Source: a phage
Strand: one strand, 5' to 3'
DNA: 64,000 bases
Sequence record: PZ445498.1
A program made the translations under genes and the position numbers. The notes beneath the pieces were generated by a model. The model saw only the letters and a program-made list of their open reading frames with translations, was not told the DNA's origin and ran no database searches. Positions 20,766 to 32,536 of the stretch are shown here, piece after piece (position 1 is the stretch's first letter; the number at the start of each line of letters is the position of its first letter).

Positions 20766-20766
20766 T

Positions 20767-21444: not shown

Positions 21445-21491
21445 AGTAGTTATAGCCCTCTAAGCGAGGGCTATTATACAGAAATTTTCAC

Positions 21492-21520
21492 TTGCTTAAT
21501 ATAGAAAATTTCTATATAAT
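21492..21520 (+). promoter_or_regulatory. early promoter
   Basis: ttgctt-17-tataat. Confidence 0.65.
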
Positions 21521-21550
21521 ATATTTATAAATTCGAGAGAGGAATCAAAC

Positions 21551-21847
21551 ATGAAACGCATTGTACTTGCACTGACTCTAGTATCTACTTCTGTATTTGC
21601 TGCTCCGCAACAGGAACTTTGTCAAGTTCAGGTTTGTAATAAGTTAGAACGATTTACTTTGGATATTTGGTCACACATTAAAGATAATATGGGTGAACAG
21701 TGTTTTGATATTGTTCTGCCAAAAGAGCAGGCTGTTCCTGGTGCTATTCTTAGCTCAGAGTCACGTTGGTGGCAGGGTTCTTCTATCAATCCAACTAAGA
21801 AGTCAGTGACACGTATCAAACAAGTATATCAGTGCAAGGTTCAGTAA
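21551..21847 (+). CDS. hypothetical secreted protein
   Basis: Signal peptide MKRIVLALTLVSTSVFAAP. Confidence 0.5.
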   Translation: MKRIVLALTLVSTSVFAAPQQELCQVQVCNKLERFTLDIWSHIKDNMGEQCFDIVLPKEQAVPGAILSSESRWWQGSSINPTKKSVTRIKQVYQCKVQ

Positions 21848-21855
21848 AATTTCAC

Positions 21856-21884
21856 TTGCTTAATGTCGAAATTTTCTGTATAAT
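21856..21884 (+). promoter_or_regulatory. early promoter
   Basis: ttgctt-17-tataat. Confidence 0.65.
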
Positions 21885-21917
21885 ATATTCATAAATTCGG
21901 AAGATTAGGAACTATTT

Positions 21918-22427
21918 ATGCTAGACTATGAGTCTATACTTTATAGATTCCGTTTAGAAGATGGTGTGCTGGTGTGGAATCCGCTCTCCGGAAACTCCAG
22001 AGAGGAGAAGATATTTAATACTAAGTTTGCCAATAAACCTGCGGGATCTTTGCACAAAAGCTCTGGGTATATCAGAGTTAACGTTGATCACCAAGATTAC
22101 TTAGCTCATATCATAGTATTTATACTATATTATGGGTATAGGCCGGAAATGATTGATCATAAAGACTGCAATAAGTTAAACATACATCCTTTAAATTTAA
22201 GAGCAGCGGATAGTACCACTAATACTCATAATGCTAGTAAATCTTCTAGGAATACTAGCGGATTTAAGGGAGTATCCTACCACAAAGCATCTGGTCAGTG
22301 GCAGGGTAGAATAATGTTTAAAGGTAAGTCATACTCCGCAGGGCTGCACAGTACTCCTGAAGCAGCAAATGAAGCTCTAATTCAACTGAGAGAGAAACTT
22401 CATGGGGAATACGCCCGAAATAATTAA
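21918..22427 (+). CDS. HNH homing endonuclease
   Basis: IDHKDCNKLNIHPLNLRAA HNH core; stop abuts tRNA-Ser. Confidence 0.7.
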   Translation: MLDYESILYRFRLEDGVLVWNPLSGNSREEKIFNTKFANKPAGSLHKSSGYIRVNVDHQDYLAHIIVFILYYGYRPEMIDHKDCNKLNIHPLNLRAADSTTNTHNASKSSRNTSGFKGVSYHKASGQWQGRIMFKGKSYSAGLHSTPEAANEALIQLREKLHGEYARNN

Positions 22428-22516
22428 GGAAGAATAGCATAACGGTATTGCAGCAGATTGCTAATCTGTCGGTTTGAAACATAGCCTTGTGGGTTCGAAT
22501 CCCACTTCTTCCTCCA
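22428..22516 (+). tRNA. tRNA-Ser (anticodon GCU)
   Basis: Acceptor ggaagaa/ttcttcc, loop ttgctaa, long variable arm, T-arm gtggg-ttcgaat-cccac, CCA. Confidence 0.75.
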
Positions 22517-22521
22517 AATTT

Positions 22522-22599
22522 GGTTCTCAAGCTCATTTGGTATGAGCCGTCGCCTCATAAGCGAAAGGTAGGTAGGTTCGAATCCTCCGGGAGCCACCA
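22522..22599 (+). tRNA. tRNA with CAU anticodon (Met, fMet or Ile2)
   Basis: Acceptor ggttctc/gggagcc with G-U pairs, loop ctcataa, T-loop ttcgaat, CCA. Confidence 0.65.
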
Positions 22600-22616
22600 A
22601 TTAACTAGGAGACTAT

Positions 22617-22802
22617 ATGTCTAAGTTTCAAGAGCTTAAACAAGAACTAGAAGAGTGCATGTGTACTCACTGCCAAGGAACAGGTACTATTAATGATGCT
22701 GAACCTGGCGATATGCGTTTTGAAGAGTGGGAATGCGCAGCATGTAATGGTTCTGGTATTAATCCAGAATTTGGAATTTCTCTAGATATTGATCGAGGTT
22801 AA
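22617..22802 (+). CDS. small Cys-rich zinc-finger protein (DnaJ-like CxxCxGxG repeats)
   Basis: CTHCQGTG ... CAACNGSG. Confidence 0.5.
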   Translation: MSKFQELKQELEECMCTHCQGTGTINDAEPGDMRFEEWECAACNGSGINPEFGISLDIDRG

Positions 22803-23136
22803 CATGGATATTTACACTACTCCAGCAGTAAATCTGATTGGCTCTTGCCTTGTGCATTTCCGCTTCTTCCAAACGGATGATAGCAAAGAGGAATATACTT
22901 ATCCTCTGATGGATTTTCAGATTGAGGATTTCTTTCGTGAAGTTCGTAATATTTCTGGAAACTTCTTCTATGGTATGGATAAGGAAGATTTTGACATTGA
23001 GTTCCCTATAATCTCTCGTTATTTCCTAGAACAGTCTGACGCTCATTTTAGTAAGATTGAGCATATGGAAGTAGCATGGGCAATTCAGTTCGAGATTACT
23101 GGTTTTGCTCGATATATTCAGGGTTACGAACTCTAA
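22789..23136 (+). CDS. hypothetical protein
   Basis: 115-aa ORF. Confidence 0.5.
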   Translation: MIEVNMDIYTTPAVNLIGSCLVHFRFFQTDDSKEEYTYPLMDFQIEDFFREVRNISGNFFYGMDKEDFDIEFPIISRYFLEQSDAHFSKIEHMEVAWAIQFEITGFARYIQGYEL

Positions 23137-23145
23137 AGATTACAT

Positions 23146-23222
23146 GGGGGTGTAATCGAATTGGCATAGGTACTGGACTTAAAATTCAGGTTTTGTGGGT
23201 TCGAATCCCACCACCCCTACCA
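23146..23222 (+). tRNA. tRNA, anticodon UAA predicted (Leu?), atypically short variable arm
   Basis: Acceptor gggggtg/cacccct, anticodon stem ctgga/ttcag with loop cttaaaa, T-arm gtggg-ttcgaat-cccac, CCA. Confidence 0.55.
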
Positions 23223-23373
23223 AATTAAGGAAATAAAATGAAAGCTATTAAGAAAGCACTACGTAAATTTATGTACTGTCGTTTTCATAGCATCAAGACT
23301 TCAACTAATGGTACGACTTATGATCGCTATGATCCTAAGTTTGGCTTACATTCTAAATAACTGGAGAAAACAA

Positions 23374-23580
23374 ATGGCTAATCCTGAAATTACGGCACAA
23401 CGCTTTATGCTGAAAGGAATTATTGCTGAAGCAGGCATGACAGAAGAAGTTACAGATTTTCAAAAGCAATTCCTCAATATTCTCACTCAAGCTAAAGAGC
23501 TAGGAGAGAAGGAACATGGCGCGGCTATTATGGCAATCACGTTGGTTGGGCTTGATCTGGCTGAAGAATCAGGAGTTTAA
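23374..23580 (+). CDS. hypothetical protein
   Basis: Start at MANPEIT after ggagaaaacaa. Confidence 0.45.
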   Translation: MANPEITAQRFMLKGIIAEAGMTEEVTDFQKQFLNILTQAKELGEKEHGAAIMAITLVGLDLAEESGV

Positions 23581-23610
23581 CTCCTCCAAGCAGAAATTTT
23601 AAAAATGTAC

Positions 23611-23640
23611 TTGCTTTTTACTTAAGATTTCTGTTATAAT
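23611..23640 (+). promoter_or_regulatory. early promoter
   Basis: ttgctt-18-tataat. Confidence 0.6.
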
Positions 23641-23670
23641 AGTTATATAAATTGATGAAGGAGTTAACGA

Positions 23671-23946
23671 ATGCAAAATCGTGTTATAACAACTGGTATT
23701 GAAAGTGCAATCTGTAAATCCTGGGAAGGCTGGGAAGGTGAGATTGAATGGCTTTATTTCTATGATGTAGAACTTCTGCCGGAAATTAAAGCTAAATGTG
23801 TTGAAGCTGGCATGGCTCCAGATGCTACGGCTGATGTTGAGATTAGCATGAATAAGTTAGAGGGTCGGGTAATCACTGTTAGTGATGAGGGTGAAGAAGT
23901 TTTTGAACTTCCGTTCTCCTTAACTGTCACTCCTAAGTTCGACTAA
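23671..23946 (+). CDS. hypothetical acidic protein
   Basis: 91 aa, promoter 23611-23640 upstream. Confidence 0.5.
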   Translation: MQNRVITTGIESAICKSWEGWEGEIEWLYFYDVELLPEIKAKCVEAGMAPDATADVEISMNKLEGRVITVSDEGEEVFELPFSLTVTPKFD

Positions 23947-23982
23947 CTGATACAGCACTGAGCAAGTTCTTTAAAGTTTGAC

Positions 23983-24012
23983 TTGCTCAAGTGCCTTAAA
24001 ACTTGATATAAT
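23983..24012 (+). promoter_or_regulatory. early promoter upstream of a tRNA block
   Basis: ttgctc-18-tataat. Confidence 0.55.
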
Positions 24013-24136
24013 ATTTATCTAATTTGGAAACATATCTGAATGAGAAGTAATTAAGCGAGTTGCTTTTAGGGGTAAAGTCAGGAAATCCTGAAATATTCCA
24101 CCTTGAGTTTAACCGACTTACTTTTCATTCAAATAT

Positions 24137-24217
24137 GGGGGATTGGCTCAGTGGCGACGGCGCCTGGCTGTAGACCGGGTATATCACGCGGAGGTTCGAG
24201 TCCTCCATCCCCCACCA
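24137..24217 (+). tRNA. tRNA-Tyr (anticodon GUA) probable
   Basis: Acceptor gggggat/atccccc, stem cctgg/ccggg with loop ctgtaga, extended variable region, T-arm ggagg-ttcgagt-cctcc, CCA. Confidence 0.55.
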
Positions 24218-24225
24218 AATTTAAT

Positions 24226-24300
24226 GCACCTATCGTCTAATGGTTAGGACATCAGGATTTCAATCTGAGAATCGGAGTTCAATTCTCCGTGGGTGTGCCA
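24226..24300 (+). tRNA. tRNA-Glu (anticodon UUC)
   Basis: Acceptor gcaccta/tgggtgt, D-arm gtctaatggttaggac, loop atttcaa, T-arm cggag-ttcaatt-ctccg, CCA. Confidence 0.7.
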
Positions 24301-24309
24301 ATTAATAAT

Positions 24310-24380
24310 TGGGGTACGCATAGGTTGCTAGTGGGCCTCCAAAACCCATGAAAAGGTTTCGAATACCTTTACCCCTGCCA
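24310..24380 (+). tRNA. tRNA, anticodon CCA (Trp) possible
   Basis: T-arm aaggt-ttcgaat-acctt, acceptor 3' tacccct, CCA; short D-arm, 1-72 mismatch; anticodon assignment uncertain. Confidence 0.45.
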
Positions 24381-24386
24381 ATATTT

Positions 24387-24461
24387 GCACCTTTAGCTGA
24401 GATGGATTAGCGCTTGCCTGAAGAGCTTGAGAGGTTCGTTCAATTCGAACAGGGTGCACCA
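24387..24461 (+). tRNA. tRNA-Phe (anticodon GAA)
   Basis: Acceptor gcacctt/agggtgc, D-stem gctg/tagc, loop ctgaaga, T-arm gttcg-ttcaatt-cgaac, CCA. Confidence 0.65.
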
Positions 24462-24478
24462 ATTTGAAGGAGATGCTG

Positions 24479-24751
24479 ATGCATCCTGAAAACTTCTTTA
24501 TATACTGTACTAGTCTTTTGCTTAAACGCCGGATTAATAAAGTATATCACTACAGAGCTAGTCAACAGCCTTATGTTTATGATTCTAGTGGAGATCATAT
24601 TCCACTTGAGCAACTAGGGACTGATTATATGGTTTTGAAGCACTTTAATGAGGCGAATATCTCTAGCGTTCATAACCGACAAAACTCTAAAACGTGGTGG
24701 CATAAGAAGCGTAAGAAAGGCATCAAATTTCTTAAAAATGTAGTTGCTTAA
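24479..24751 (+). CDS. hypothetical protein
   Basis: Start moved to the ATG after aaggag (track TTG start overlaps the tRNA-Phe 3' end). Confidence 0.45.
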   Translation: MHPENFFIYCTSLLLKRRINKVYHYRASQQPYVYDSSGDHIPLEQLGTDYMVLKHFNEANISSVHNRQNSKTWWHKKRKKGIKFLKNVVA

Positions 24752-24772
24752 ATCCTTAAAGTTCTGTATAAT
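24744..24772 (+). promoter_or_regulatory. early promoter
   Basis: ttgctt-17-tataat. Confidence 0.6.
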
Positions 24773-24800
24773 TATTACATAAATTGAACTGGAGAACTAG

Positions 24801-24989
24801 ATGAAAGCACCTAAACCGAAATTAGTTAAGTTCGACTGCTGTGATACTGAAATCTTATTTACTAAGTTTGGTGAATTTAAGATGTGTGAATGTGGAACAT
24901 GTGGTTACGATCATGGTGATGGATATTATTGCAGAACCCTAGGGCCTTCTGAACTAATCCACTTCTCATGGCCGGAAAGTAAAGAATAA
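24801..24989 (+). CDS. small Cys-rich zinc-ribbon protein
   Basis: CCDTE...CECGTCGYDHGDGYYC. Confidence 0.5.
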   Translation: MKAPKPKLVKFDCCDTEILFTKFGEFKMCECGTCGYDHGDGYYCRTLGPSELIHFSWPESKE

Positions 24990-24991
24990 TA

Positions 24992-25067
24992 CGACCGTTG
25001 GCTGAATGGCTTAGGCGGAGGCCTGCAAAACCTCCTTATGTGAGTTCGAATCTCATGCGGTCGTCCA
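24992..25067 (+). tRNA. tRNA-Cys (anticodon GCA)
   Basis: Acceptor cgaccgt/gcggtcg, loop ctgcaaa, T-arm gtgag-ttcgaat-ctcat, CCA. Confidence 0.7.
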
Positions 25068-25074
25068 AATTTTA

Positions 25075-25157
25075 GGGTCGTTAGCCAAGCGGTTTGGCGG
25101 GGGACTGTTAATCCATGTCGAAAGACAACGTAGGTTCGAATCCTACACGGCCCGCCA
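25075..25157 (+). tRNA. tRNA, anticodon GUU (Asn) possible, enlarged variable region
   Basis: Acceptor gggtcgt/acggccc, D-arm gcc-aagcggttt-ggc, T-arm gtagg-ttcgaat-cctac, CCA; anticodon stem poorly paired. Confidence 0.5.
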
Positions 25158-25184
25158 ATTTCATTAACAACTGAGGAAATAGAT

Positions 25185-25370
25185 ATGACAACTCGTGCAA
25201 TTGCTCGACTAGAAGCTGATCGTGATAATCTGATTAATAATATTAAGGTTCGTGATAATATTATTAAGGCTCTGAAAGCTGAACTTCTTGAAGAACTTCA
25301 AGGTCAAGTAGAGCGTCGTGAAGCTCTAAAAGAGGTTGAGGAAGCTATCGAAAAACTCAAGGCTGAATAA
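25185..25370 (+). CDS. hypothetical coiled-coil protein
   Basis: 61 aa. Confidence 0.45.
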   Translation: MTTRAIARLEADRDNLINNIKVRDNIIKALKAELLEELQGQVERREALKEVEEAIEKLKAE

Positions 25371-25373
25371 ATT

Positions 25374-25955
25374 ATGCACGGAATATCCTTACCCATTCCA
25401 GGGTTTGAGGAGTACTTAGTAAGTTTGGATGGGTTAGTATTTAGTATCAAATCAAACAAAATACTAACCCCAATAACCAGTAATTACGGATACTTATCTA
25501 TACGTCTCCATAAAAATGGTCAACAGAGAAATACCGGTGTACATAGGATTTTAGCATGTGCATTTAAGAAATTACCAAGTCTAGACTCTGAACTAGAAGT
25601 TGACCATATTAACACAGACATTACTTATTGGGGTCTTAATAACTTACAAGTGCTCACAAAAGAGCAGCATCTAGAAAAGACTTTAAAAGACAAAGGATTT
25701 AGTAAACTAAACCATGATAATTGTTGTAAGGATTGTGGTAAAGCTATTTCTTTAAAAGCTGAAAAATGTCAGGAGTGCTCTTCATATAAACCAAAAGATA
25801 TCTCTATAACTAAAGAAATAATCGAGGTTACAGTAAGAGAGCTAGGCTGGTCAGGTGCAGGGAGAAAGTTAAGTTATTCAGATAATGGGTTGCGTAAAAG
25901 ATACACTTCTTTAGGAGGCAATCCTAAAGAACTTAAAAAGTTAAAGGTACTATAG
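25374..25955 (+). CDS. HNH homing endonuclease with C-terminal Cys-rich region
   Basis: ELEVDHINTD..NLQVLTKEQH HNH core and CCKDCGK...CQECSS; its 3' end overlaps the first 10 nt of tRNA-Asp. Confidence 0.7.
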   Translation: MHGISLPIPGFEEYLVSLDGLVFSIKSNKILTPITSNYGYLSIRLHKNGQQRNTGVHRILACAFKKLPSLDSELEVDHINTDITYWGLNNLQVLTKEQHLEKTLKDKGFSKLNHDNCCKDCGKAISLKAEKCQECSSYKPKDISITKEIIEVTVRELGWSGAGRKLSYSDNGLRKRYTSLGGNPKELKKLKVL

Positions 25956-26020
25956 TCTAACGGTTAGGATACTCCCCTGTCACGGGAGAGGTAGGGTTTC
26001 GATTACCCTTAGTACCGCCA
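25946..26020 (+). tRNA. tRNA-Asp (anticodon GUC)
   Basis: Acceptor ggtacta/tagtacc, anticodon stem ctccc/gggag with loop ctgtcac, T-arm agggt-ttcgatt-accct, CCA. Confidence 0.85.
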
Positions 26021-26026
26021 AATTAT

Positions 26027-26103
26027 ACATCCATAGCTCAATTGGTTAGAGCTACCGCCTCTTAAGCGGTAGGTTCTAGGTTCAAGTCCTAGTGGGTGTA
26101 CCA
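26027..26103 (+). tRNA. tRNA-Lys (anticodon CUU)
   Basis: Acceptor acatcca/tgggtgt, D-arm gctcaattggttagagc, stem accgc/gcggt with loop ctcttaa, CCA. Confidence 0.75.
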
Positions 26104-26316
26104 AACATCAGAGCAGCGTGATGTACTGCAAAGACCCAAAGTCCGGGGTGGACTTCTTGATTCAAAGGAGCAGGCATTAATTATCATTCTAGCGTGGTGG
26201 AGAGGGGACACCAGCTTGCCGAGGGTAGAAGCTCGTTCGATTCGAGTGAAAGAATGGTTCTCGTAAATCCGCACAAGTGATAGTAGGTTCAAGTCCTACC
26301 TAGATTGACTCATTAT

Positions 26317-26390
26317 GCGTTCGTAGTTAAAAGGTATAATTTTTGGTTGCCAACCAGAAGTTGAGGGTTCGATTCCCTCCGACCGCACCA
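26317..26390 (+). tRNA. tRNA-Gly (anticodon GCC)
   Basis: Acceptor gcgttcg/cgaccgc, loop ttgccaa, T-arm gaggg-ttcgatt-ccctc, CCA. Confidence 0.7.
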
Positions 26391-26645
26391 AATCTTTGTA
26401 GGTCGCGTCACTTATAATGGGACTACAGGGTAAACAAGGCGATGAGTTTCCGGCCGGTTCTAGTCGCTGAAAATCCTCCCGACCAGGTAGGTGTAGGTAA
26501 ACGAAAGTTTACTTATTGAGTAGGTTCCGATAGATCGGCGAGTCTATTCTGGCATTTAAGAGAAGTCTCGCAAACTTCTTTGTCAGCCGTGGGGCTTGAA
26601 CCCTCCAGGTGGCCTACGCAATAAGTAAATTTATTAAAAATTCAT

Positions 26646-26674
26646 TTGCTATTTTGCTTAATTCTCTGTATAAT
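26646..26674 (+). promoter_or_regulatory. early promoter
   Basis: ttgcta-17-tataat. Confidence 0.65.
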
Positions 26675-26706
26675 ATATCTTATAAAGTGTTGAGAAGGAA
26701 AGCAAA

Positions 26707-26904
26707 ATGAAAAAAGTTATGTTACTATCTGTATTCTTACTCACTGGTTGCTTTAAATTTGATTCAACCATTAACAAGGAGTATGAATTTGCAAAAAATT
26801 TCTGTGGTGGAGAGAGTAAAATACAAAACTTCAGTATACACTCTACAATTCCTAGTACCATTTACTGCGTAGATGGACGGAATATTAATATTCCACCACA
26901 ATAA
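26707..26904 (+). CDS. small lipoprotein
   Basis: MKKVMLLSVFLLTGC lipobox. Confidence 0.5.
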   Translation: MKKVMLLSVFLLTGCFKFDSTINKEYEFAKNFCGGESKIQNFSIHSTIPSTIYCVDGRNINIPPQ

Positions 26905-26913
26905 AAGAATATT

Positions 26914-26990
26914 CTCCGATTAGCTCAATTGGCTAGAGTACACCGTTTGGGGCGGTGGGGTTGAAGGTTCGAGTCCTTCATTGGAGACCA
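26914..26990 (+). tRNA. tRNA-Pro (anticodon UGG)
   Basis: Acceptor ctccgat/attggag, stem caccg/cggtg with loop tttgggg, T-arm gaagg-ttcgagt-ccttc, CCA. Confidence 0.85.
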
Positions 26991-26996
26991 AACAAT

Positions 26997-27074
26997 TGCG
27001 GGTTAGATCTTTGGTAGAGATCGCTAGTCTCATAAGCTAGAAAGAGGTAGGTTCGATTCCTACACCCGCTTCCA
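26997..27074 (+). tRNA. tRNA with CAU anticodon (Met, fMet or Ile2); 1-72 mismatch
   Basis: D-stem gatc/gatc, stem ctagt/gctag with loop ctcataa, T-arm gtagg-ttcgatt-cctac, CCA. Confidence 0.65.
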
Positions 27075-27095
27075 ATTTAATAGAAGGATTTCGAA

Positions 27096-27260
27096 ATGAA
27101 ATTATTTCGTTTAAAGGTAAGTGATCTACGATCTAGCAAAGATCGTAAGAAGTATCCACTAGCCCATTACGGTAAAGATAAAAACGAAGTGATGGCGGAA
27201 TTAGGAATCAATCATCCTTACTTGAAAGTCTACTCTATTAAGGAAGTCTATGCTAATTAA
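27096..27260 (+). CDS. hypothetical small protein (54 aa, below the ORF-track cutoff)
   Basis: ATG at 27096 after aagga; MKLFRLKVSDLRSSKDRKKYPLAHYGKDKNEVMAELGINHPYLKVYSIKEVYAN. Confidence 0.4.
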   Translation: MKLFRLKVSDLRSSKDRKKYPLAHYGKDKNEVMAELGINHPYLKVYSIKEVYAN

Positions 27261-27723
27261 TAAAGTTTTAGCTGCCTTAAACCTTCCTGATAACTTCATT
27301 ATAGATGATAAGCTCATAAGAGCTTATATGAGCAAATATAACGAAATTTCGGGTAAAGAAGGTAAGTTAAAAACTTCAGAGTTTAGATTCTGTTATCGAA
27401 TGGCAGCCTTAAATCTCTTAAAGTATAAAAGGGAGCATAAAATACCTATAACGGAAGGTTTTGTATATGTAATTGGTAATCCAGCATGGCCAGGCATGTA
27501 TAAAATAGGTATGACTATAGATGTGAATGAGAGGTTAGCAAGTTATCAAACTTATTCACCTAATAGAGACTACAAGCTATACCATTTCAGATTTTCGTCG
27601 GATAAAAGACGTACAGAGAAAGAATTACATAATCTTCTTAAAGATTATAGAGTATCTGGAGAGTGGTTTGAAGTACCTGTACTAGATGCTTTTAAATTAT
27701 TAGTAGAAAAATTGGATTGCTAG
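27250..27723 (+). CDS. T5orf172 / GIY-YIG-like domain protein
   Basis: GFVYVIGNPAWPGMYKIGMTIDVNERL...GEWF matches the pattern I recall for the T5orf172 family; 3' end overlaps the following tRNA by about 10 nt. Confidence 0.55.
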   Translation: MLINKVLAALNLPDNFIIDDKLIRAYMSKYNEISGKEGKLKTSEFRFCYRMAALNLLKYKREHKIPITEGFVYVIGNPAWPGMYKIGMTIDVNERLASYQTYSPNRDYKLYHFRFSSDKRRTEKELHNLLKDYRVSGEWFEVPVLDAFKLLVEKLDC

Positions 27724-27791
27724 CTCAACTGGATAAGAGTAGCGGACCTTTAATCCGTCAGTTCTGGGTTCGAATCCCAGGCAATCCACCA
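27714..27791 (+). tRNA. tRNA-Lys (anticodon UUU) probable; C at position 33
   Basis: Acceptor ggattgc/gcaatcc, stem gcgga/tccgt with loop cctttaa, T-arm ctggg-ttcgaat-cccag, CCA. Confidence 0.6.
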
Positions 27792-27795
27792 AATT

Positions 27796-27869
27796 GCTCG
27801 GTTAGTTTAATGGTAGAACCCCGTCTTTACACGGCGGTTGCGATAGTTCGATTCTATCACCGAGTACCA
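27796..27869 (+). tRNA. tRNA-Val (anticodon UAC)
   Basis: Acceptor gctcggt/accgagt, stem ccgtc/ggcgg with loop tttacac, T-arm gatag-ttcgatt-ctatc, CCA. Confidence 0.75.
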
Positions 27870-27894
27870 ATTAACTCAAAATAAGGAATTGCAA

Positions 27895-28249
27895 ATGCAA
27901 TTATCAAGCAAGGTTCAAGGCTATTTCGGTCATGTAACAATGGAGTTCGCTATCTCTTAAAGGTTGGGACTTCGAACAAGATCTAGCTGAATTCTACAAA
28001 GATATTGATCTGAACGTACCATACATAGGACTCTCCACTGGTCAAGAGATTACAGAAGCCGATGTATTCAAGGCAAGTCAAGGTGAGGTAACACCTAGTT
28101 TTGCCGAGTTCTGGTTAGGTATCACACTGAAAGAAGATGCACCGGATGGTGGTGTGGTTATGCAGAGTATGCACTCTGGAAGCTCTGATTACCTTTTCGT
28201 TAGCGACGTTAAGGAACTACAAGAAATCGCTAAAAATGTACTTGCTTGA
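27895..28249 (+). pseudogene. frameshift-interrupted gene (21-codon ATG frame then 95-codon +1 frame)
   Basis: RBS taaggaa and ATG 27895 open a frame that stops at 27958-27960; the +1 frame is open from 27938 to 28249 and has no start codon of its own. Confidence 0.35.
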
Positions 28250-28270
28250 TGCTTAATTTCTTGTTATAAT
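28242..28270 (+). promoter_or_regulatory. early promoter
   Basis: ttgctt-17-tataat; overlaps the 3' end of the frameshifted gene. Confidence 0.6.
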
Positions 28271-28625
28271 ATTTATATAAATTGATGTGAAAATAGCTGC
28301 CTAGATATCAGGTGTATGACGTCTACACTAGCAGAGCTACCGAAAAAGAGATCCTCAGGATAAACGCCGTAGCAAAATTAGTCTGATATCCATCAATTTA
28401 GTTCACTAAGGTATTAGCTCGACCTAGGACTGGCTGCCAAAAAGCACAGTTGCAATTAGACCCCCTAATGGCGGGGGATGCTTTGCAATAAGTTCTAGAT
28501 TAGTCCACTAGATTCAGCGGCTACTGAATAGTGTATTGGGTTTGCGAGATGACGCGGTTCCTTCCGCTCGAAGCGAAGGTGCTGTAGTTACGCCGAGCTA
28601 ATAGCCTTAGTAAACTAAAGAATTT

Positions 28626-28700
28626 GGGCGGTTAGTTTATCTGGGAAAATACCTGACTTGCACTCAGGAGTGAGGAGTTCGACTCTCCTACTGTCCACCA
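28626..28700 (+). tRNA. tRNA-Ala (anticodon UGC)
   Basis: Acceptor gggcggt/actgtcc with G-U pairs, stem cctga/tcagg with loop cttgcac, T-arm aggag-ttcgact-ctcct, CCA. Confidence 0.75.
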
Positions 28701-28705
28701 AATTC

Positions 28706-28790
28706 GGGGCTATGCTGGAACTGGTAGACAATACGGCCTTAGATTCCGTAGCTTAAATGCGTGGGAGTTCGAGTCTCCCTAGCCCCACCA
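28706..28790 (+). tRNA. tRNA-Leu (anticodon UAG), type II
   Basis: Acceptor ggggcta/tagcccc, loop cttagat, long variable arm, T-arm gggag-ttcgagt-ctccc, CCA. Confidence 0.75.
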
Positions 28791-28806
28791 ACTTATAGGA
28801 TAATGT

Positions 28807-29391
28807 ATGCAGTTTGTACCAATAAAAGATGCACCAGGGTATTTAGTAAATGAAACAGGGGATGTGTTATCTACATTTACTAATAAAATTTTATCAAGAT
28901 ATATAGTTGATGGATACCCTGCTGTAAAATTACAGATAAATGGTAAGCAAACTTCGGTACTTATACACCGAATTATTTCCCATGTATTTGGGGACTTATA
29001 TAATCTATTTGATCCTGAATTAGAAGTAGATCACAAGGATAGAGATAGGCTGAATCTATCTAAAGATAATCTTCAAGTTTTATCAAAAATAGAACATCAG
29101 AAGAAAACTAATAAAGATAATGGATGGTCTGATAGTAGAGTACCTTGCCCCTTATGTGGAAATCTAATGCTTCAGAGATCAGTAACATGTACAAATTGTA
29201 AGCCAAAACCTACAGGAAAGTTAATAAAACCAGAATTGTCCTTAGAAGACATAACTGAAAAGGTTTTATTAATGGGGTGGGTTAAGGCAGCTAAAGATCT
29301 AGAAGTATCAGAGTCCACTTTACGTAGACGATATACTAAACTAACCGGATTAAGCCCAAAAGTATTAACAGAACAACGGAAAAGCAAATAG
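28807..29391 (+). CDS. HNH homing endonuclease with C-terminal Cys-rich region
   Basis: Paralogue of ORF 25374 (ELEVDHKDRD..NLQVLSKIEH; CPLCGN...CTNC); 3' end overlaps tRNA-Ser by 14 nt. Confidence 0.7.
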   Translation: MQFVPIKDAPGYLVNETGDVLSTFTNKILSRYIVDGYPAVKLQINGKQTSVLIHRIISHVFGDLYNLFDPELEVDHKDRDRLNLSKDNLQVLSKIEHQKKTNKDNGWSDSRVPCPLCGNLMLQRSVTCTNCKPKPTGKLIKPELSLEDITEKVLLMGWVKAAKDLEVSESTLRRRYTKLTGLSPKVLTEQRKSK

Positions 29392-29471
29392 ACTGGTGAC
29401 TAAACCCGATTGGAAATCGGTTGAGGGGTAGCAATACCGCCTTATGGGTTCAACTCCCATCTTTTCCGCCA
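29378..29471 (+). tRNA. tRNA-Ser (anticodon GGA), type II
   Basis: Acceptor ggaaaag/cttttcc, loop ttggaaa, long variable arm, T-arm atggg-ttcaact-cccat, CCA. Confidence 0.6.
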
Positions 29472-29483
29472 AACAATTTATAT

Positions 29484-29578
29484 GGTAGGTCAATCCAATG
29501 GCTGGCGCTGGACTCCGACTTGAAATCGGTTGATCGTAGTGATACGGTGTAAGGGTTCGATCCCCTTACCTACCTCCA
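29484..29578 (+). tRNA. tRNA-Ser (anticodon UGA), type II
   Basis: Acceptor ggtaggt/acctacc, loop cttgaaa, long variable arm, T-arm aaggg-ttcgatc-ccctt, CCA. Confidence 0.65.
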
Positions 29579-29959
29579 AATCTTGAAGTATGCCGGAATC
29601 GGTAGACGGGGCTTCCTAAAGGGCGTAAGGGGAACATCCACTCCTCATAAGATACCCGAAAATGAGGCTGAGATAAATGGTCTATCTCATGAAGGTTCAA
29701 GTCCTTCTGCTTCTTGATACATTAATGGCTCAAAGTGTAACGGTGCTATTTGATGTTCTTAGTAAGACTTTCCCGACATGCGTTCGGGAGTAAGCTGCTA
29801 AGGCTAGAGTAGAAGAGTTTCGGAGAGCCGCCACAATTGAGTATTATTAGAGAGCATTCGCAAGAAAGAATCAGGAGAAAAACCTGTGCGCAGAATGACT
29901 AACTTTGGTACCTTAGACGGCCAAATGGAGGACTGATCATCCCCTAATAGTATTCAATT

Positions 29960-30036
29960 GTGGCTATATCATAATTGGTTAATGATCCTGATTGTGAATC
30001 AGGCCTATGTGGATTCGAATTCTACTAGCCACCCCC
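29960..30036 (+). tRNA. tRNA-His (anticodon GUG)
   Basis: Acceptor gtggcta/tagccac, stem cctga/tcagg with loop ttgtgaa, T-arm gtgga-ttcgaat-tctac; 3' end reads cccca. Confidence 0.75.
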
Positions 30037-30043
30037 AAATATA

Positions 30044-30118
30044 GCGTCCTTATTTCAACGGAAAGAATGTAAAGCTACGAACTTTACGATCGGGGTTCGA
30101 TTCCCTGAGGATGCACCA
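30044..30118 (+). tRNA. tRNA-Arg (anticodon ACG)
   Basis: Acceptor gcgtcct/aggatgc, stem taaag/cttta with loop ctacgaa, T-arm cgggg-ttcgatt-ccctg, CCA. Confidence 0.75.
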
Positions 30119-30142
30119 ATTAACTTAAACAGGAAATAAAAT

Positions 30143-30343
30143 ATGGCTGATTTCTGCAAAGAATGCTCTATTGATATGTGGGGAAGAGATACTGGTGATC
30201 TTTCTGGTCTGATTACAGAAGCCGAAGTTAAAGAAGGCTATGGTGCTGTTGTAATCTGTGAAGGTTGTGGCATTATCCGTGTTGATCATAATGGTAAACG
30301 TCTAGAAGAACCTGATCCAATCGCCACGGTTCCTGTAGAATAA
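30143..30343 (+). CDS. small Cys-rich protein
   Basis: CKEC...CEGCG. Confidence 0.5.
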   Translation: MADFCKECSIDMWGRDTGDLSGLITEAEVKEGYGAVVICEGCGIIRVDHNGKRLEEPDPIATVPVE

Positions 30344-30351
30344 AAAATTAT

Positions 30352-30427
30352 TGGAGTGTAGCTCAACTGGCAGAGCGACGGTTTCTGACACCGTAGGTTT
30401 CTAGTTCGATCCTAGACATTCCAGCCA
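30352..30427 (+). tRNA. tRNA-Gln (anticodon CUG)
   Basis: U1-A72 acceptor tggagtg/cattcca, D-arm gctcaactggcagagc, stem acggt/accgt with loop ttctgac, CCA. Confidence 0.8.
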
Positions 30428-30433
30428 AACAAT

Positions 30434-30511
30434 TGGGGATTAGCTTAGCTTGGCCTAAAGCTTCGGCCTTTGAAGTCGAGATCATTGGTTCAAATCCAAT
30501 ATCCCCTGCCA
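30434..30511 (+). tRNA. tRNA-Gln (anticodon UUG) probable
   Basis: D-stem gctt/aagc, stem tcggc/gtcga with loop ctttgaa, T-arm attgg-ttcaaat-ccaat, CCA; 1-72 mismatch. Confidence 0.6.
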
Positions 30512-30519
30512 AACAATAA

Positions 30520-30595
30520 GCGGTTAAGCACACGGGTTGTGCCGCAGGCCTTCCAAGCCCCGCTGAGTAGGGTTCGATTCCCTCTAGCCGCTCCA
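30520..30595 (+). tRNA. tRNA, anticodon UCC (Gly) possible
   Basis: Acceptor gcggtta/tagccgc, D-arm gcac-acgggtt-gtgc, T-loop ttcgatt, CCA; anticodon stem weak. Confidence 0.5.
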
Positions 30596-30612
30596 ACTTT
30601 AAGGAAACATTT

Positions 30613-30834
30613 ATGCACGTTTTTGAGTTTCGTGATAAAAGTAACAATAAACGAGTTATTGTTATTGGAGAAACATACCTAGCATACGAACAAACTGACG
30701 GCTCTGTTATCTTGAATGATGAGAAAGCAAATTTTAGCTTTTATCCAGAAGAACCTTATGAAGAGTTTCGTACTAAGTTTCTTTTACCAGACTGGCTAGC
30801 AGTAGCCGAGCAACTAGAATCCGAAGATGGCTGA
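30613..30834 (+). CDS. hypothetical protein
   Basis: 73 aa, aaggaaa RBS. Confidence 0.5.
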   Translation: MHVFEFRDKSNNKRVIVIGETYLAYEQTDGSVILNDEKANFSFYPEEPYEEFRTKFLLPDWLAVAEQLESEDG

Positions 30835-30985
30835 TAACCTGAGACTAAAGGTTGACAAACAAAAGAAACGTGTAGAGATTGAGCTTGGTGACGAACGCCT
30901 AGCACTATCCTTCGAGTTTCTTCAGCAGTTGGCGATGACAGTAATGTCTGATAAGTCTCCTGTATTTGAAAAAGAAATCCCGTTG
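30827..30985 (+). CDS. hypothetical small protein (52 aa, below the ORF-track cutoff)
   Basis: ATG overlaps the preceding stop (ATGGCTGA); MADNLRLKVDKQKKRVEIELGDERLALSFEFLQQLAMTVMSDKSPVFEKEIPLK. Confidence 0.35.
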
Positions 30986-31001
30986 AAATGACGGGTTTAT
31001 T

Positions 31002-31076
31002 GCTCCTAAAGCATTGCTGGCGATGCAGTTGCCTTGTAAGCATCTGAACTGGGTTCGACTCCTGGTGGGAGCACCA
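31002..31076 (+). tRNA. tRNA-Thr (anticodon UGU)
   Basis: Acceptor gctccta/tgggagc, loop cttgtaa, T-arm ctggg-ttcgact-cctgg, CCA. Confidence 0.7.
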
Positions 31077-31091
31077 AATTTAAAAATTCAT

Positions 31092-31120
31092 TTGCCTTCT
31101 CTCTTATTTCTTGTTATAAT
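31092..31120 (+). promoter_or_regulatory. early promoter
   Basis: ttgcct-17-tataat. Confidence 0.6.
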
Positions 31121-31150
31121 ATTTATATAAATTAATGAGAGGGAAACCAA

Positions 31151-31444
31151 ATGAAACGTTATCTTTCTGTCGTGTTCCAAACTGGTGGTCAACGCTACAC
31201 TTATGAATTTCCTGAGTCCTGGAAAATTAAAGAAGGTGATCAAGTTGTTGTATTAACACCTCGTGAAGGCTTCAAAGTAGTAACGGTTAAACAAGTCTTT
31301 CCAAAAGATCACGAACCATCTAAGTCTATTCAGTACAAGATGATTCACGGTCTGGTACGAAAAGTACCTAGAACAGAAGTCGAAGTAGATAAAACTGGGG
31401 AAGCTAAATACCAGTATACTTCTTACTTGGATGAAATGATGTAA
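31151..31444 (+). CDS. hypothetical protein
   Basis: 97 aa, promoter 31092-31120 and shared leader. Confidence 0.5.
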   Translation: MKRYLSVVFQTGGQRYTYEFPESWKIKEGDQVVVLTPREGFKVVTVKQVFPKDHEPSKSIQYKMIHGLVRKVPRTEVEVDKTGEAKYQYTSYLDEMM

Positions 31445-31445
31445 T

Positions 31446-31521
31446 GCTCTGATAGTTCAACAGGTTAGAACAGGCGACCGATAATCGTCAAATCTTGGTT
31501 CGATCCCAAGTCGGAGTACCA
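31446..31521 (+). tRNA. tRNA-Ile (anticodon GAU); C at position 33
   Basis: Acceptor gctctga/tcggagt, D-arm gttcaacaggttagaac, stem ggcga/tcgtc with loop ccgataa, T-arm cttgg-ttcgatc-ccaag, CCA. Confidence 0.7.
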
Positions 31522-31527
31522 AATTAT

Positions 31528-31603
31528 AGTTAGTTGGCAGAGTGGTTATGCACCTCCTTCATACGGAGCGACTACAGTGGTTCAACTCCACTACTAACTA
31601 CCA
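31528..31603 (+). tRNA. tRNA with CAU anticodon (Met, fMet or Ile2)
   Basis: Acceptor agttagt/actaact, loop ttcatac, T-arm agtgg-ttcaact-ccact, CCA. Confidence 0.65.
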
Positions 31604-31786
31604 AAGATAAGATCAGGCCTTTGTGCCAGATCTCTGTGTTTATTAAACTGAATGGGACTATCAATCCACAAGCCGGACTACGAGCGATTATCGGGTATTC
31701 ACTTAATAAACAGCCTGCCTCCCAGTTTTTATCTTGCTTCTGGGTTAACAAAAAGCTGAGCCAAATTCTAACATCAGGGAGATCTA

Positions 31787-32155
31787 ATGAAAGCATATCA
31801 AAGTCTTAAGTCTGGCGTAATTAACCTTGTTCATGATAACCAGATCATTCAGCTATATTCTAAAGATGGTGAACTTAAACAAAAGGTTCTAGTTGAAGAT
31901 CTAGAGGGTATCACACCTCATTTTGACCCTGAGGCCTTCCGCATTGTAGATGTAGAAGTGGTTCCTCAAGTCGAGGGTGGTCAGCACCTAAATGTCAATG
32001 TGTTAAGCCGTGATCAGCTTTTGGATGCACAGAAACATCTTGAAAAATATCCTCAGTTGACCATCCGTGTCTCTGGCTATGCTGTTCGATTTAACGCATT
32101 GACGCGTGAACAACAGAACGACGTTATTAGTCGTACATTTACTCAGGCGATATAA
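31787..32155 (+). CDS. hypothetical protein
   Basis: 122-aa ORF. Confidence 0.5.
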
Positions 32156-32236
32156 TGGGGTTTGGATACGATTTCTCCCAACTACGCAAGGTAGTCGAGC
32201 AAACTCCATTTATCTCCCAAGTTTTAGGAGAAATGT

Positions 32237-32536
32237 GTGGATCGAGCAGTAAGACGCCATCACCGGCAACGTGTGAAAAACAATCGCAAGAAGTATTGGA
32301 CAGTCTTCCCACATGAAGAAAGCCCTAAGAGGTTAGGCATTATCACTACCACTCCTTGCATCTGTTCTTGTTGGATGTGTGGGAATCCTCGCAAATACTA
32401 TAAGAATAGTAAAGCAGGCATGAAAATTTCGGAGATTAAAAAGATGGATGCAATGATTATGGGCATCACCTTTACAGGTGGTATCTCTGATGAATTCGAC
32501 GGTTTTGTAACTCAGGATATTGTCGAAATTATCTAA
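32237..32536 (+). CDS. hypothetical Cys-rich protein
   Basis: 99 aa, PCICSCWMCGNP; start codon uncertain (GTG). Confidence 0.4.
   Translation: MDRAVRRHHRQRVKNNRKKYWTVFPHEESPKRLGIITTTPCICSCWMCGNPRKYYKNSKAGMKISEIKKMDAMIMGITFTGGISDEFDGFVTQDIVEII

What the first reader, a model, noticed from the sequence alone, without database searches (positions are those of the whole stretch)
28285..29959. Further ORF-free structured spacers in the tRNA array
28285-28625 (about 340 nt between a promoter and tRNA-Ala) and 29579-29959 (about 380 nt) contain strong local hairpins (gaccccctaatggcggggg) and, at 29584-29712, a tRNA-like 5' half (gccggaatcggtagacgg) separated by about 100 nt from a good T-arm (gaaggttcaagtccttc). 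That last arrangement could be a split or intron-containing tRNA, or a decayed tRNA gene.
Basis: seen in the sequence. Interest (0 to 1): 0.45.

Follow-up and report, generated by a model that had tools for sequence, protein, structure and literature searches.

The report
Known T5 stable RNAs, tRNA mimic
The two gene-free spacers in this T5-like phage's tRNA cluster hold conserved, folded small RNAs already catalogued in phage T5 (RNA2H, RNA1, RNAI, RNAIII), and the "split tRNA" is RNA1, a leucine-tRNA look-alike that cannot decode and whose job is still unknown.

Summary
The window is the tRNA region of a T5-like phage (Demerecviridae).

Spacer 28285-28625 holds three things:
- the homolog of T5 promoter P13b;
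- an unannotated 5' leader element of about 100 nt, which I call E0;
- stable RNA "RNA2H".

Spacer 29579-29959 holds T5 "RNA1" (tRNA-like), "RNAI", and a non-T5 filler in the "RNAIII" position.

The "5' half plus distant T-arm" is RNA1. It is a complete class-II cloverleaf most similar to tRNA-Leu. A conserved 48-nt helical extension replaces its anticodon loop, and it has no CCA. Sixteen base pairs show compensatory change across Escherichia, Salmonella, Klebsiella and Pectobacterium phages, so it is not decayed.

Intron-aware ARAGORN does call it a tRNA. However, the call changes among orthologs (Phe, Leu or Val) and so does the "intron" site, so it is not an intron-containing tRNA.

RNAI ends like a tRNA (GGCUC...GAGCC-G-CCA). 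In T5, the annotated ends of RNA2H and RNAIII sit 2 nt apart across long closing helices, which suggests RNase III excision.

A viable T5 deletion mutant lacks all four RNAs. Function remains unknown, and none of them matches an Rfam family.

The parts
28242..28270 (+). Promoter, homolog of T5 P13b. The -35 box TTGCTT is at 28242-28247. A 17-nt spacer includes TG, and the -10 box TATAAT is at 28265-28270. Transcription is inferred to start near 28277.
   Evidence: Nearly identical to the annotated T5 'promoter P13b'. Read directly in the sequence.
28278..28401 (+). E0, a 5' leader element closed by a helix (about 28278-28287 with 28389-28400). The roughly 93-nt interior (28297-28389) is absent from T5, which has only a small hairpin here.
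   Evidence: The alignment with T5 shows the insertion. Fold: (z = -1.56 on its own). Present in 85 phage records at 95-100% identity and never annotated. There is too little variation to test covariation.
28412..28606 (+). Homolog of T5 stable RNA 'RNA2H'. A 17-bp closing helix (28405-28421 with 28594-28611, one bulge) encloses a multi-branch core.
   Evidence: T5/BF23 annotation and coordinate mapping. In an alignment of 25 distinct sequences, 55 pairs are 99.1% paired against 29-41% when slid, and 9 pairs change on both sides.
28626..28790 (+). tRNA-Ala(UGC) at 28626-28700 and tRNA-Leu(UAG) at 28706-28790, transcribed downstream of RNA2H.
   Evidence: ARAGORN and Rfam.
28807..29391 (+). HNH homing endonuclease gene (homolog of T5 hegC / F-TflI). 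It overlaps the start of tRNA-Ser(GGA).
   Evidence: ORF list, T5 annotation and hit annotations.
29378..29578 (+). tRNA-Ser(GGA) at 29378-29471 and tRNA-Ser(UGA) at 29484-29578. Default ARAGORN missed the second.
   Evidence: and 7 (T5 tRNAS2 and tRNAS1).
29582..29726 (+). Homolog of T5 'RNA1', a non-decoding mimic of a class-II tRNA.
- Acceptor stem: 29584-29590 with 29708-29714.
- U8: 29591.
- D-arm: 29593-29609.
- Anticodon stem: 29611-29615 with 29664-29668.
- 48-nt extension: 29616-29663. It contains a hairpin at 29629-29646 with the invariant loop ACAUCCAC at 29634-29641.
- Long variable arm: 29669-29689, with loop AAUGGUC at 29676-29682.
- T-arm: 29691-29707.
- No CCA is encoded.
   Evidence: T5/BF23 annotation; covariation; a covariance model built from it hits tRNA-Leu best; ARAGORN with introns.
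29727..29833 (+). Homolog of T5 'RNAI', a rod-like RNA. Its ends form an acceptor-like stem (GGCUC with GAGCC) followed by G-CCA.
   Evidence: Annotation mapping, alignment and consensus fold, single fold, and two interior alleles with conserved ends.
29838..29958 (+). Occupant of the 'RNAIII' slot. It is a 121-nt filler whose interior is unrelated to T5 RNAIII. A 21-bp helix closes it (29829-29849 with 29944-29964), pairing the RNAI 3' end and trailer with the tRNA-His leader and 5' strand.
29960..30035 (+). tRNA-His(GUG), immediately downstream. Its 5' strand takes part in the closing helix of the RNAIII slot.

Best explanation
The two spacers are genes for small stable non-coding RNAs. They are co-transcribed with the phage tRNAs from the P13b-type promoter and cut out of the precursor. 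They are orthologs of, or slot-mates of, the phage T5/BF23 RNAs 'RNA2H', 'RNA1', 'RNAI' and 'RNAIII'.

Shown here:
- Homology and synteny with the annotated T5 RNAs.
- Conserved secondary structures with compensatory base changes for RNA1 and RNA2H, and weaker support for RNAI.
- RNA1 is a full class-II tRNA cloverleaf most similar to tRNA-Leu. A conserved 48-nt helical extension ending in the invariant loop ACAUCCAC replaces its anticodon loop. Its acceptor helix continues pairing where the discriminator and CCA would be.
- RNAI ends in an acceptor-like stem followed by G-CCA.

Inferred, processing:
- The long closing helices of RNA2H, of the RNAIII slot, and probably of E0 are RNase III sites. 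In T5 the annotated ends lie across these helices with a 2-nt 3' overhang.
- RNase P and 3' exonucleases make the tRNA-like ends: the RNAI 5' end (which defines the RNA1 3' end), the RNAI CCA end, and the tRNA-His 5' end.

Inferred, function (weakest step):
- RNA1 cannot decode or be charged as encoded. It keeps every element of the tRNA elbow and the acceptor/T stack.
- It therefore most likely works by occupying a tRNA-binding host or phage factor, as a mimic or decoy. Its two invariant loops would be the specific contact surface.
- The stem-closed modules with swappable interiors (E0, the RNAIII slot) act mainly as processing and stability modules for the neighbouring tRNAs.
For: Identity:
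- megablast places the stretch in 439 T5-like phage records.
- The T5 and BF23 records annotate P13b, rna2H, rna1, rnaI and rnaIII at the homologous places. Coordinates were mapped.

RNA1 structure:
- 41 pairs are 89.5% paired against 34-53% when slid. Sixteen pairs have compensatory change, and 0 of 500 shuffles reach this. RNAalifold independently finds the same arms.
- U8, A14, G18, G19, A21 and the T-loop UUC.A are invariant.
- A covariance model of RNA1 scores tRNA-Leu(UAG) best (41.7 bits). Next come tRNA-Leu(UAA), Tyr and Ser, all class II.

RNA1 does not decode:
- The anticodon call is unstable among orthologs.
- It has no CCA, whereas 25 of 26 tRNAs have one at the called 3' end, and His has it one base further on.
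- There is no Rfam tRNA or intron hit over it, even at E <= 10.

Other RNAs:
- RNA2H: 99.1% paired against 29-41% when slid.
- RNAI: ends GGCUC with GAGCC-G-CCA.
- The spacer folds into exactly the three annotated domains.

Processing: in T5, the 5' end of RNA2H pairs with the base 2 nt inside its 3' end, and the same holds for RNAIII.

Accessory role: the viable mutant T5-123 lacks 29191-32442, which covers all four RNAs (PMC11464382; coordinates). The region is a known deletion hotspot (PMC12483538).
Against: - No experiment or RNA-seq data could be consulted here. That the RNAs are stable, and where they end, rests on the GenBank annotation of T5 and BF23, whose primary papers I could not read.
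- Much of the covariation in RNA2H and RNAI comes from two block 'alleles'. It reflects few independent events and could be module replacement rather than stepwise compensation.
- RNA1 alone does not fold better than shuffles (z = -0.71).
- The decoy idea has no identified partner. In the PARIS study, cloned fragments of this region other than the one carrying tRNA-Lys did not rescue infection.
- The annotated 5' end of T5 RNA1 lies 2 nt upstream of the canonical +1 position of my cloverleaf, which is not what a simple RNase P cut would give.
Confidence: 0.8

Rival explanations
1. All these RNAs are only processing and insulation modules. They are structured spacers that keep neighbouring tRNAs folding independently and supply RNase III / RNase P sites. 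The 'stable RNAs' are by-products with no function of their own.
For: - The RNAIII slot holds at least five unrelated fillers (28-133 nt) inside the same closing helix (counts).
- E0 is present or absent among close relatives.
- RNAI has two interior alleles inside conserved ends.
- The region can be deleted.
- The ends fit RNase III and RNase P cuts.
Against: - RNA1 keeps two invariant loops and all tRNA tertiary positions across Escherichia, Salmonella, Klebsiella and Pectobacterium phages. In Klebsiella phages it sits in a different neighbourhood, not next to the same tRNAs.
- The core of RNA2H is invariant in sequence across 25 distinct homologs, while the whole stretch is about 88% identical to T5.
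- A mere spacer would not need this.
Confidence: 0.3
2. 29584-29714 is a functional tRNA gene (Phe or Leu) interrupted by a 40-nt intron in the anticodon loop. The intron is removed to give a decoding tRNA.
For: ARAGORN run with intron models calls tRNA-Phe(aaa) with a 41-nt intron in the window. One GenBank record annotates the ortholog as a 134-nt tRNA-Leu(taa). The match to another record lists a tRNA-Phe among its features.
Against: - The call changes among orthologs: Leu(taa), Phe(aaa), Val(aac), with the intron at position 33, 35, 36, 37 or 39.
- U33 is not conserved.
- The 'intron' forms helices with compensatory change that extend the anticodon stem.
- There is no group I intron match, and no CCA although the rest of the array encodes it.
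- Established knowledge: enterobacteria have no splicing endonuclease for short tRNA introns. An unmodified A34 anticodon is not used there except in tRNA-Arg(ACG).
Confidence: 0.03
3. The spacers are decaying remnants (tRNA pseudogenes and junk) left by recombination and homing-endonuclease traffic in the tRNA region.
For: The region is a recombination and deletion hotspot. It carries homing endonuclease genes and a frameshifted ORF just upstream.
Against: - Compensatory changes maintain the helices.
- RNA1 matches 500 phage records, including 71 Klebsiella phages.
- Loops and tertiary nucleotides are invariant.
- T5 annotators list these as stable RNAs.
Confidence: 0.04
4. The spacers encode small proteins, as several GenBank records annotate ('hypothetical protein' over RNA1, RNAI, RNA2H).
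For: ORFs of 44 and 38 aa overlap RNA1 and RNAI. Several records carry 'hypothetical protein' there.
Against: - Orthologs differ by 1-nt and other non-triplet indels inside these ORFs.
- The 44-aa ORF starts with TTG.
- Variation follows base pairing, not codons.
- T5 and BF23 curators annotate RNAs here, not CDS.
Confidence: 0.03

Closest known systems
Phage T5 / BF23 stable RNAs RNA1, RNAI, RNAIII and RNA2H (GenBank AY543070, AY692264, AJ604530; annotated as 'tRNA-like stable RNA' or 'stable RNA with unknown functions')
   Same: - Same positions in the tRNA array and the same promoter (P13b).
- Sequence identity is about 80% for RNA1, 91% for RNAI and 85% for RNA2H.
- The folds and end motifs are the same.
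   Different: - The window has an extra roughly 93-nt leader element (E0).
- Its RNA2H has a longer variable hairpin.
- An unrelated 121-nt filler sits in the RNAIII slot.
- The small ORF T5.063 that precedes RNA1 in T5 is absent.
Canonical class-II tRNA-Leu
   Same: - 7-bp acceptor stem, U8, a 3-bp D-stem with the GAAUYGGUAGA loop, a 5-bp anticodon stem, a long variable arm, and a T-arm with a UUCRA loop.
- It is the best non-self hit of the RNA1 covariance model.
   Different: - A 48-nt helical extension replaces the 7-nt anticodon loop.
- The 1-72 pair is U.U.
- There is no discriminator or CCA, and the helix continues instead.
- It scores below any Rfam tRNA threshold.
Phage T4 'species 1' and 'species 2' stable RNAs (rnaC, rnaD) in the T4 tRNA cluster (own knowledge, not checked here)
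   Same: Small stable RNAs of unknown function that are co-transcribed and co-processed with phage tRNAs and dispensable in the laboratory.
   Different: No sequence relationship was tested. T4 is an unrelated phage, and the structures differ.
tRNA mimics that are not decoders: bacterial Y RNA (YrlA) tRNA-like domain, tmRNA tRNA-like domain, mascRNA (own knowledge; mascRNA papers appeared)
   Same: These RNAs keep the acceptor/T stack and the elbow. They use them for recognition by tRNA-processing enzymes or partner proteins, while the anticodon region is replaced.
   Different: - No Rfam match to any of them.
- No tag reading frame, and ARAGORN finds no tmRNA.
- A Ro/Rsr partner was not looked for.
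GOLLD and ROOL, large structured RNAs of unknown function found next to tRNA genes in phages (own knowledge)
   Same: Conserved structured non-coding RNAs embedded in phage tRNA arrays.
   Different: They are much larger (about 600-800 nt), occur mainly in Gram-positive phages, and give no Rfam match here.

Membership tests
Phage T5 stable RNAs (RNA1, RNAI, RNA2H, RNAIII as annotated in AY543070/AJ604530) | Sequence homology to the annotated T5 RNA over its whole length | tested here: met
   RNA1 80-81%, RNAI 91% and RNA2H 85% identical to T5 over the full length. This is NOT met for the RNAIII interior, where only the closing-helix flanks match.
Phage T5 stable RNAs (RNA1, RNAI, RNA2H, RNAIII as annotated in AY543070/AJ604530) | Same position in the tRNA array: P13b - RNA2H - tRNA-Ala; tRNA-Ser1 - RNA1 - RNAI - RNAIII - tRNA-His | tested here: met
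Phage T5 stable RNAs (RNA1, RNAI, RNA2H, RNAIII as annotated in AY543070/AJ604530) | Accumulates as a discrete stable RNA in infected cells | not testable with these tools
   Rests on the GenBank notes only. The primary papers are not held in the library.
Decoding tRNA | Cloverleaf with conserved tertiary nucleotides (U8, A14, G18 G19, A21, T-loop) | tested here: met
Decoding tRNA | 7-nt anticodon loop with U33 and an anticodon conserved among orthologs | tested here: not met
   The loop is replaced by 48 structured nt. The putative anticodon is AAA, UAA or AAC, and U33 varies.
Decoding tRNA | 3' discriminator plus CCA (encoded by the real tRNAs of this array) | tested here: not met
   25 of 26 tRNAs have CCA at the called end, and His has it one base further on. 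RNA1 has UGAUAC instead.
Decoding tRNA | Reaches the Rfam RF00005 threshold / called by default ARAGORN | tested here: not met
   No hit over 29582-29726, even at E <= 10.
Intron-containing tRNA (group I intron or short spliced intron) | Recognisable intron (group I fold, or a fixed canonical insertion site) and a stable tRNA identity among orthologs | tested here: not met
   No Intron_gpI match. ARAGORN -i places the intron at 33, 35, 36, 37 or 39, with three different identities. The inserted part covaries as helices.
tmRNA | tRNA-Ala-like ends plus a tag reading frame; detected by ARAGORN or Rfam | tested here: not met
   ARAGORN reports no tmRNA and Rfam gives none.
Bacterial Y RNA (YrlA-type tRNA mimic) | Match to the Rfam Y RNA / YrlA models | tested here: not met
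   No such match at E <= 10 or at E <= 0.5 in five related loci.
Bacterial Y RNA (YrlA-type tRNA mimic) | Ro60/Rsr partner gene nearby | not tested
   The window's proteins were not scanned for Rsr.
RNase III-excised stem-closed RNAs | Long (about 14 bp or more) helix formed by the sequences flanking the mature RNA | tested here: met
   RNA2H 17 bp, RNAIII slot 21 bp in the window. E0 has about 10-12 bp.
RNase III-excised stem-closed RNAs | Mature ends staggered with a 2-nt 3' overhang | tested here: met
   With the ends annotated in T5: for RNA2H the 5' end pairs with position 183 and the 3' end is 185; for RNAIII the values are 112 and 114. This depends on the accuracy of the annotation.
RNase III-excised stem-closed RNAs | Cleavage depends on host RNase III | not testable with these tools
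   Needs an rnc mutant host.

The most novel reading that the evidence does not exclude
RNA1 is a tRNA-Leu-derived decoy. Its intact elbow and acceptor/T stack, together with the two invariant loops, would trap a host tRNA-directed factor such as an immune nuclease, a sensor or a modification enzyme.

The surrounding stem-closed slots (E0, the RNAI interior, the RNAIII slot, the RNA2H hairpins) have unrelated, swappable interiors. They would be an RNA-level arms-race locus of T5-like phages, parallel to the phage tRNAs already shown to neutralise PARIS and retron Eco7.
Probability: 0.15. Interest if true: 0.75.

Novelty: already known. Interest (0 to 1): 0.3.

Why it matters
For annotation:
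- These stretches should be labelled as non-coding RNA genes. Many T5-like genome records currently label them 'hypothetical protein', 'tRNA-Leu' or 'tRNA-Phe', or leave them unannotated.
- None of the RNAs has an Rfam family. The alignments and structures made here could seed four families.

For biology:
- The function of these RNAs has been open since they were first listed for T5.
- Phage tRNAs are now known to counter tRNA-cleaving defences (PMC11464382). That makes it directly testable whether a conserved tRNA look-alike that cannot decode has a related role.
- The cassette-like slots with conserved closing helices and unrelated interiors are an unexplained pattern worth a systematic survey.

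Tried and rejected
- Rfam at gathering thresholds over the whole window gave only tRNAs. The same was true at E <= 10 over 28100-30100 and at E <= 0.5 over five related loci.
- tmRNA: none found.
- Antisense targets: the complement of the invariant RNA1 loop has no match in the window beyond chance. Short-word blast of E0, RNA2H, RNAI and the RNAIII filler against the window found only chance 10-13-mers and no paralogs.
- Wider distribution of RNA1:
  - A 22-base pattern found nothing in 185,579 bacterial and archaeal genomes.
  - In metagenomes it found only T5-like contigs plus two chance hits.
  - The first IMG/VR pattern had a wrong spacer length and found nothing. The corrected one gave 30 loci, 4 of them chance.
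- Literature: five full-text searches found no paper on the function or structure of these RNAs. The T5 deletion-mutant paper (PubMed 29512629) is not held.
- 16S rRNA lead: the RNA1 loop ACAUCCAC is identical in sense to a stretch of E. coli 16S rRNA, confirmed. An 8-mer match in rRNA is expected by chance at the several-percent level, so I give it no weight.
- Covariation for E0 and for the window-type RNAIII filler could not be tested, because all copies are 95-100% identical.
Full report
**What the window is.** ARAGORN finds 26 tRNA genes on the + strand between 18.4 and 31.6 kb, and Rfam at gathering thresholds finds only tRNAs. The stretch 28200-30050 matches 439 phage records by megablast, all T5-like phages of Escherichia, Salmonella and relatives. 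Three records curated by the Pushchino group annotate the homologous region in detail: T5 (AY543070), T5 st0 (AY692264) and BF23 (AJ604530). Their order is promoter P13b, misc_RNA rna2H (172 nt, 'stable RNA with unknown functions'), tRNA-Ala, tRNA-Leu, the HNH endonuclease hegC, tRNA-Ser2, tRNA-Ser1, a small ORF, rna1 (144 nt, 'tRNA-like stable RNA with unknown functions'), rnaI (107 nt), rnaIII (106 nt), tRNA-His.

**Mapping to the window.** Pairwise alignment gives these window coordinates:
- P13b at 28222 to about 28296
- RNA2H at 28412-28606
- RNA1 at 29582-29726
- RNAI at 29727-29833
- the RNAIII position at 29838-29958

**Observation check.**
- The + strand has no ORF of 60 aa or more in either spacer.
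- Spacer 1 folds with z = -3.46 and spacer 2 with z = -2.97 against dinucleotide shuffles.
- The minimum-energy fold of spacer 2 falls into three independent domains whose limits coincide with the three T5 RNAs.
- The quoted hairpin at 28459-28477 is the tip of a variable arm of RNA2H.
- The quoted '5' half' at 29592-29609 is a D-arm. The quoted T-arm is at 29691-29707.

**RNA1, the 'split tRNA'.** I collected orthologs from IMG/VR, GenBank phages and metagenomes and aligned 28 distinct sequences. The structure I read from the alignment has these parts:
- a 7-bp acceptor stem, followed by U8;
- a 3-bp D-stem with a GAAUYGGUAGA loop;
- a 5-bp anticodon stem and a 6-7-bp variable arm;
- a 5-bp T-stem with a UUCAAGU loop.

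A 48-nt insert stands where the anticodon loop should be. It forms two more helices and ends in an 8-nt loop.

Counted on the alignment, 89.5% of cells are paired against 34-53% when the partners are slid. Sixteen of 41 pairs show changes on both sides, and no shuffle out of 500 reaches the observed values. RNAalifold independently recovers the same arms, and so does ARAGORN run with intron models.

The positions that make the tRNA elbow are invariant: U8, A14, G18 G19, A21 and the T-loop U54 U55 C56 A58. The loop ACAUCCAC of the extension and the loop AAUGGUC of the variable arm are invariant too.

A covariance model built from RNA1 scores the phage's own tRNA-Leu(UAG) best (41.7 bits). Next come tRNA-Leu(UAA), tRNA-Tyr and tRNA-Ser, which are the class-II tRNAs. 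RNA1 therefore most likely arose from a tRNA-Leu gene.

**Why RNA1 is not a decoding or intron-containing tRNA.**
- Intron-aware ARAGORN assigns Phe(aaa) in the window, Leu(taa) in T5 and Val(aac) in a Pectobacterium phage. It places the 'intron' at position 33, 35, 36, 37 or 39. This explains why one GenBank record labels the ortholog tRNA-Leu and why a tRNA-Phe appears among the features of another match.
- U33 is not conserved, and the inserted nucleotides covary as helices.
- No group I intron model matches.
- Every true tRNA of the array encodes CCA. RNA1 does not; its terminal helix goes on pairing for 3-6 more positions.
- From established knowledge, enterobacteria lack an enzyme to splice short tRNA introns and do not use unmodified A34 anticodons of this kind.

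**Why RNA1 is not decayed.** The compensatory changes argue against decay. RNA1 matches 500 phage records, including 71 Klebsiella phages (Sugarlandvirus) and Pectobacterium phages. In the Klebsiella phages it lies in a different neighbourhood.

**RNA2H and the leader element E0.** In 25 distinct homologs the consensus structure has a 17-bp closing helix with one bulge, enclosing a multi-branch core. The 55 pairs are 99.1% paired against 29-41% when slid, and 9 pairs change on both sides.

One caveat applies. These changes sit in two arms that occur as two or three block 'alleles', so they reflect few events. The closing helix and two inner helices are invariant in sequence.

The window differs from T5 in two ways. 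It also carries a roughly 93-nt insert between the promoter and RNA2H. I call this insert E0.
- E0 is enclosed by a helix made of the first nucleotides of the predicted transcript and the sequence just before RNA2H.
- T5 has only a small hairpin at that place.
- E0 occurs in 85 records at 95-100% identity and is not annotated in any of them.
- Its structure could not be tested by covariation.

**RNAI and the RNAIII slot.** RNAI starts GGCUC and ends GAGCC-G-CCA. That is an acceptor-like stem, a discriminator and CCA, followed by the same A/U-rich trailer as the tRNAs. Its consensus fold is a rod, and 4 of 23 pairs change on both sides. It exists as two alleles that share the ends but differ in about 60 interior nucleotides.

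The stretch between RNAI and tRNA-His is a slot. In my loci it holds five unrelated fillers of 28, 63, 106, 121 and 133 nt. All are enclosed by the same helix (AAUUGA... with ...UCAAUU). In the phage collection:
- the T5 type is in 283 records;
- the window type is in 55;
- the 133-nt type is in 15.

In the window the closing helix is 21 bp. It pairs the RNAI 3' end with the first bases of tRNA-His.

**Processing model (inferred).** Using the ends annotated in T5, the 5' end of RNA2H pairs with the nucleotide 2 positions inside its 3' end. The same is true of RNAIII, and RNAIV is similar. A 2-nt 3' overhang across a long helix is the signature of RNase III (established knowledge).

The RNA1 3' end abuts the RNAI 5' end, and the RNAIII 3' end abuts tRNA-His. 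This fits RNase P cuts at acceptor-like stems. I could not check how the T5 ends were determined.

**Function.** It is unknown.
- The viable mutant T5-123 lacks 29191-32442, which covers all four RNAs. In that study only the fragment carrying tRNA-Lys rescued infection of PARIS-positive cells (PMC11464382).
- The region is a known deletion hotspot (PMC12483538).
- So the RNAs are accessory.
- RNA1 keeps everything a tRNA-binding protein would see except the anticodon and the CCA end, and it has two invariant loops. My best guess is therefore a tRNA mimic that occupies a tRNA-binding factor. I give that specific reading about 0.15-0.3.
- The main rival, at about 0.3, is that the RNAs are only processing and insulation modules. 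That fits E0 and the RNAIII slot better than it fits RNA1 and RNA2H.

**Comparison and novelty.** These are the known T5/BF23 stable RNAs, so the finding is already known. The unannotated parts are E0 and the 121-nt RNAIII-slot filler. No Rfam family covers any of them, in the window or in T5 itself. RNA1 was not found outside T5-like phages.

**Dead ends.** See 'tried and rejected': target searches, the literature, and a sense match of the RNA1 loop to 16S rRNA that is within chance.

Noticed in passing
window 29484-29578: tRNA-Ser(UGA) is missed by default ARAGORN and falls below Rfam gathering (tRNA-Sec model, 37.6 bits). It corresponds to T5 tRNAS1, so the array has 27 tRNAs, not 26.
   Followed up: partly
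window 27896-28249: The homolog of a conserved 117-aa hypothetical protein is split by a frameshift near 27958 (residues 1-21 in one frame, 22-117 in another). This is a pseudogene or a sequencing error. The -35 box of P13b lies inside its 3' end.
   Followed up: partly
window 26182-26309 and 26504-26606: These are homologs of T5 'RNA2' and 'RNAIV'. RNA2 is a second tRNA-like RNA whose T-arm is at 26283-26299. They are more members of the same set of stable RNAs, outside the finding's coordinates.
   Followed up: partly
window 29829-29964; loci L001, L013, L017, L021, L036-L038: The slot between RNAI and tRNA-His holds at least five unrelated inserts (28-133 nt) in different T5-like phages. 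All sit inside the same closing helix. RNAI likewise has two interior alleles with conserved ends. The pattern looks like cassette exchange through conserved flanks.
   Followed up: partly
L001 1598-1769, 3188-3293, 637-739 (phage T5): The annotated ends of RNA2H and RNAIII, and approximately those of RNAIV, lie across their closing helices with a 2-nt 3' overhang, the signature of RNase III cleavage.
   Followed up: partly
L034 2285-2840 (Klebsiella phage vB_Kpl_K32PH164C1): In Sugarlandvirus phages, RNA1 sits inside an ORF-free stretch of about 570 nt with different flanks, ending at a terminator-like hairpin and a promoter-like site. Further unannotated RNAs are likely there.
   Followed up: no
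window 29634-29641: The invariant RNA1 loop ACAUCCAC is identical, in the same sense, to a stretch of E. coli 16S rRNA (within CUUGACAUCCACGGAAG). An 8-mer match of this kind is expected by chance at the several-percent level.
   Followed up: partly
window, all tRNA 3' ends (18394-31603): All tRNAs encode CCA, followed by a short A/U-rich trailer (AAUU, AUUA, AAAC). RNAI shares this (CCA-CAAUU). It may be a common 3' processing signal.
   Followed up: no
GenBank records of T5-like phages (e.g. OK272480 30712-30845): RNA1 orthologs are variously annotated as tRNA-Leu(taa), 'hypothetical protein', or nothing, and a tRNA-Phe appears among the features of another match (OK272477). RNAI and RNA2H are often under 'hypothetical protein'. 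This is a systematic mis-annotation.
   Followed up: partly
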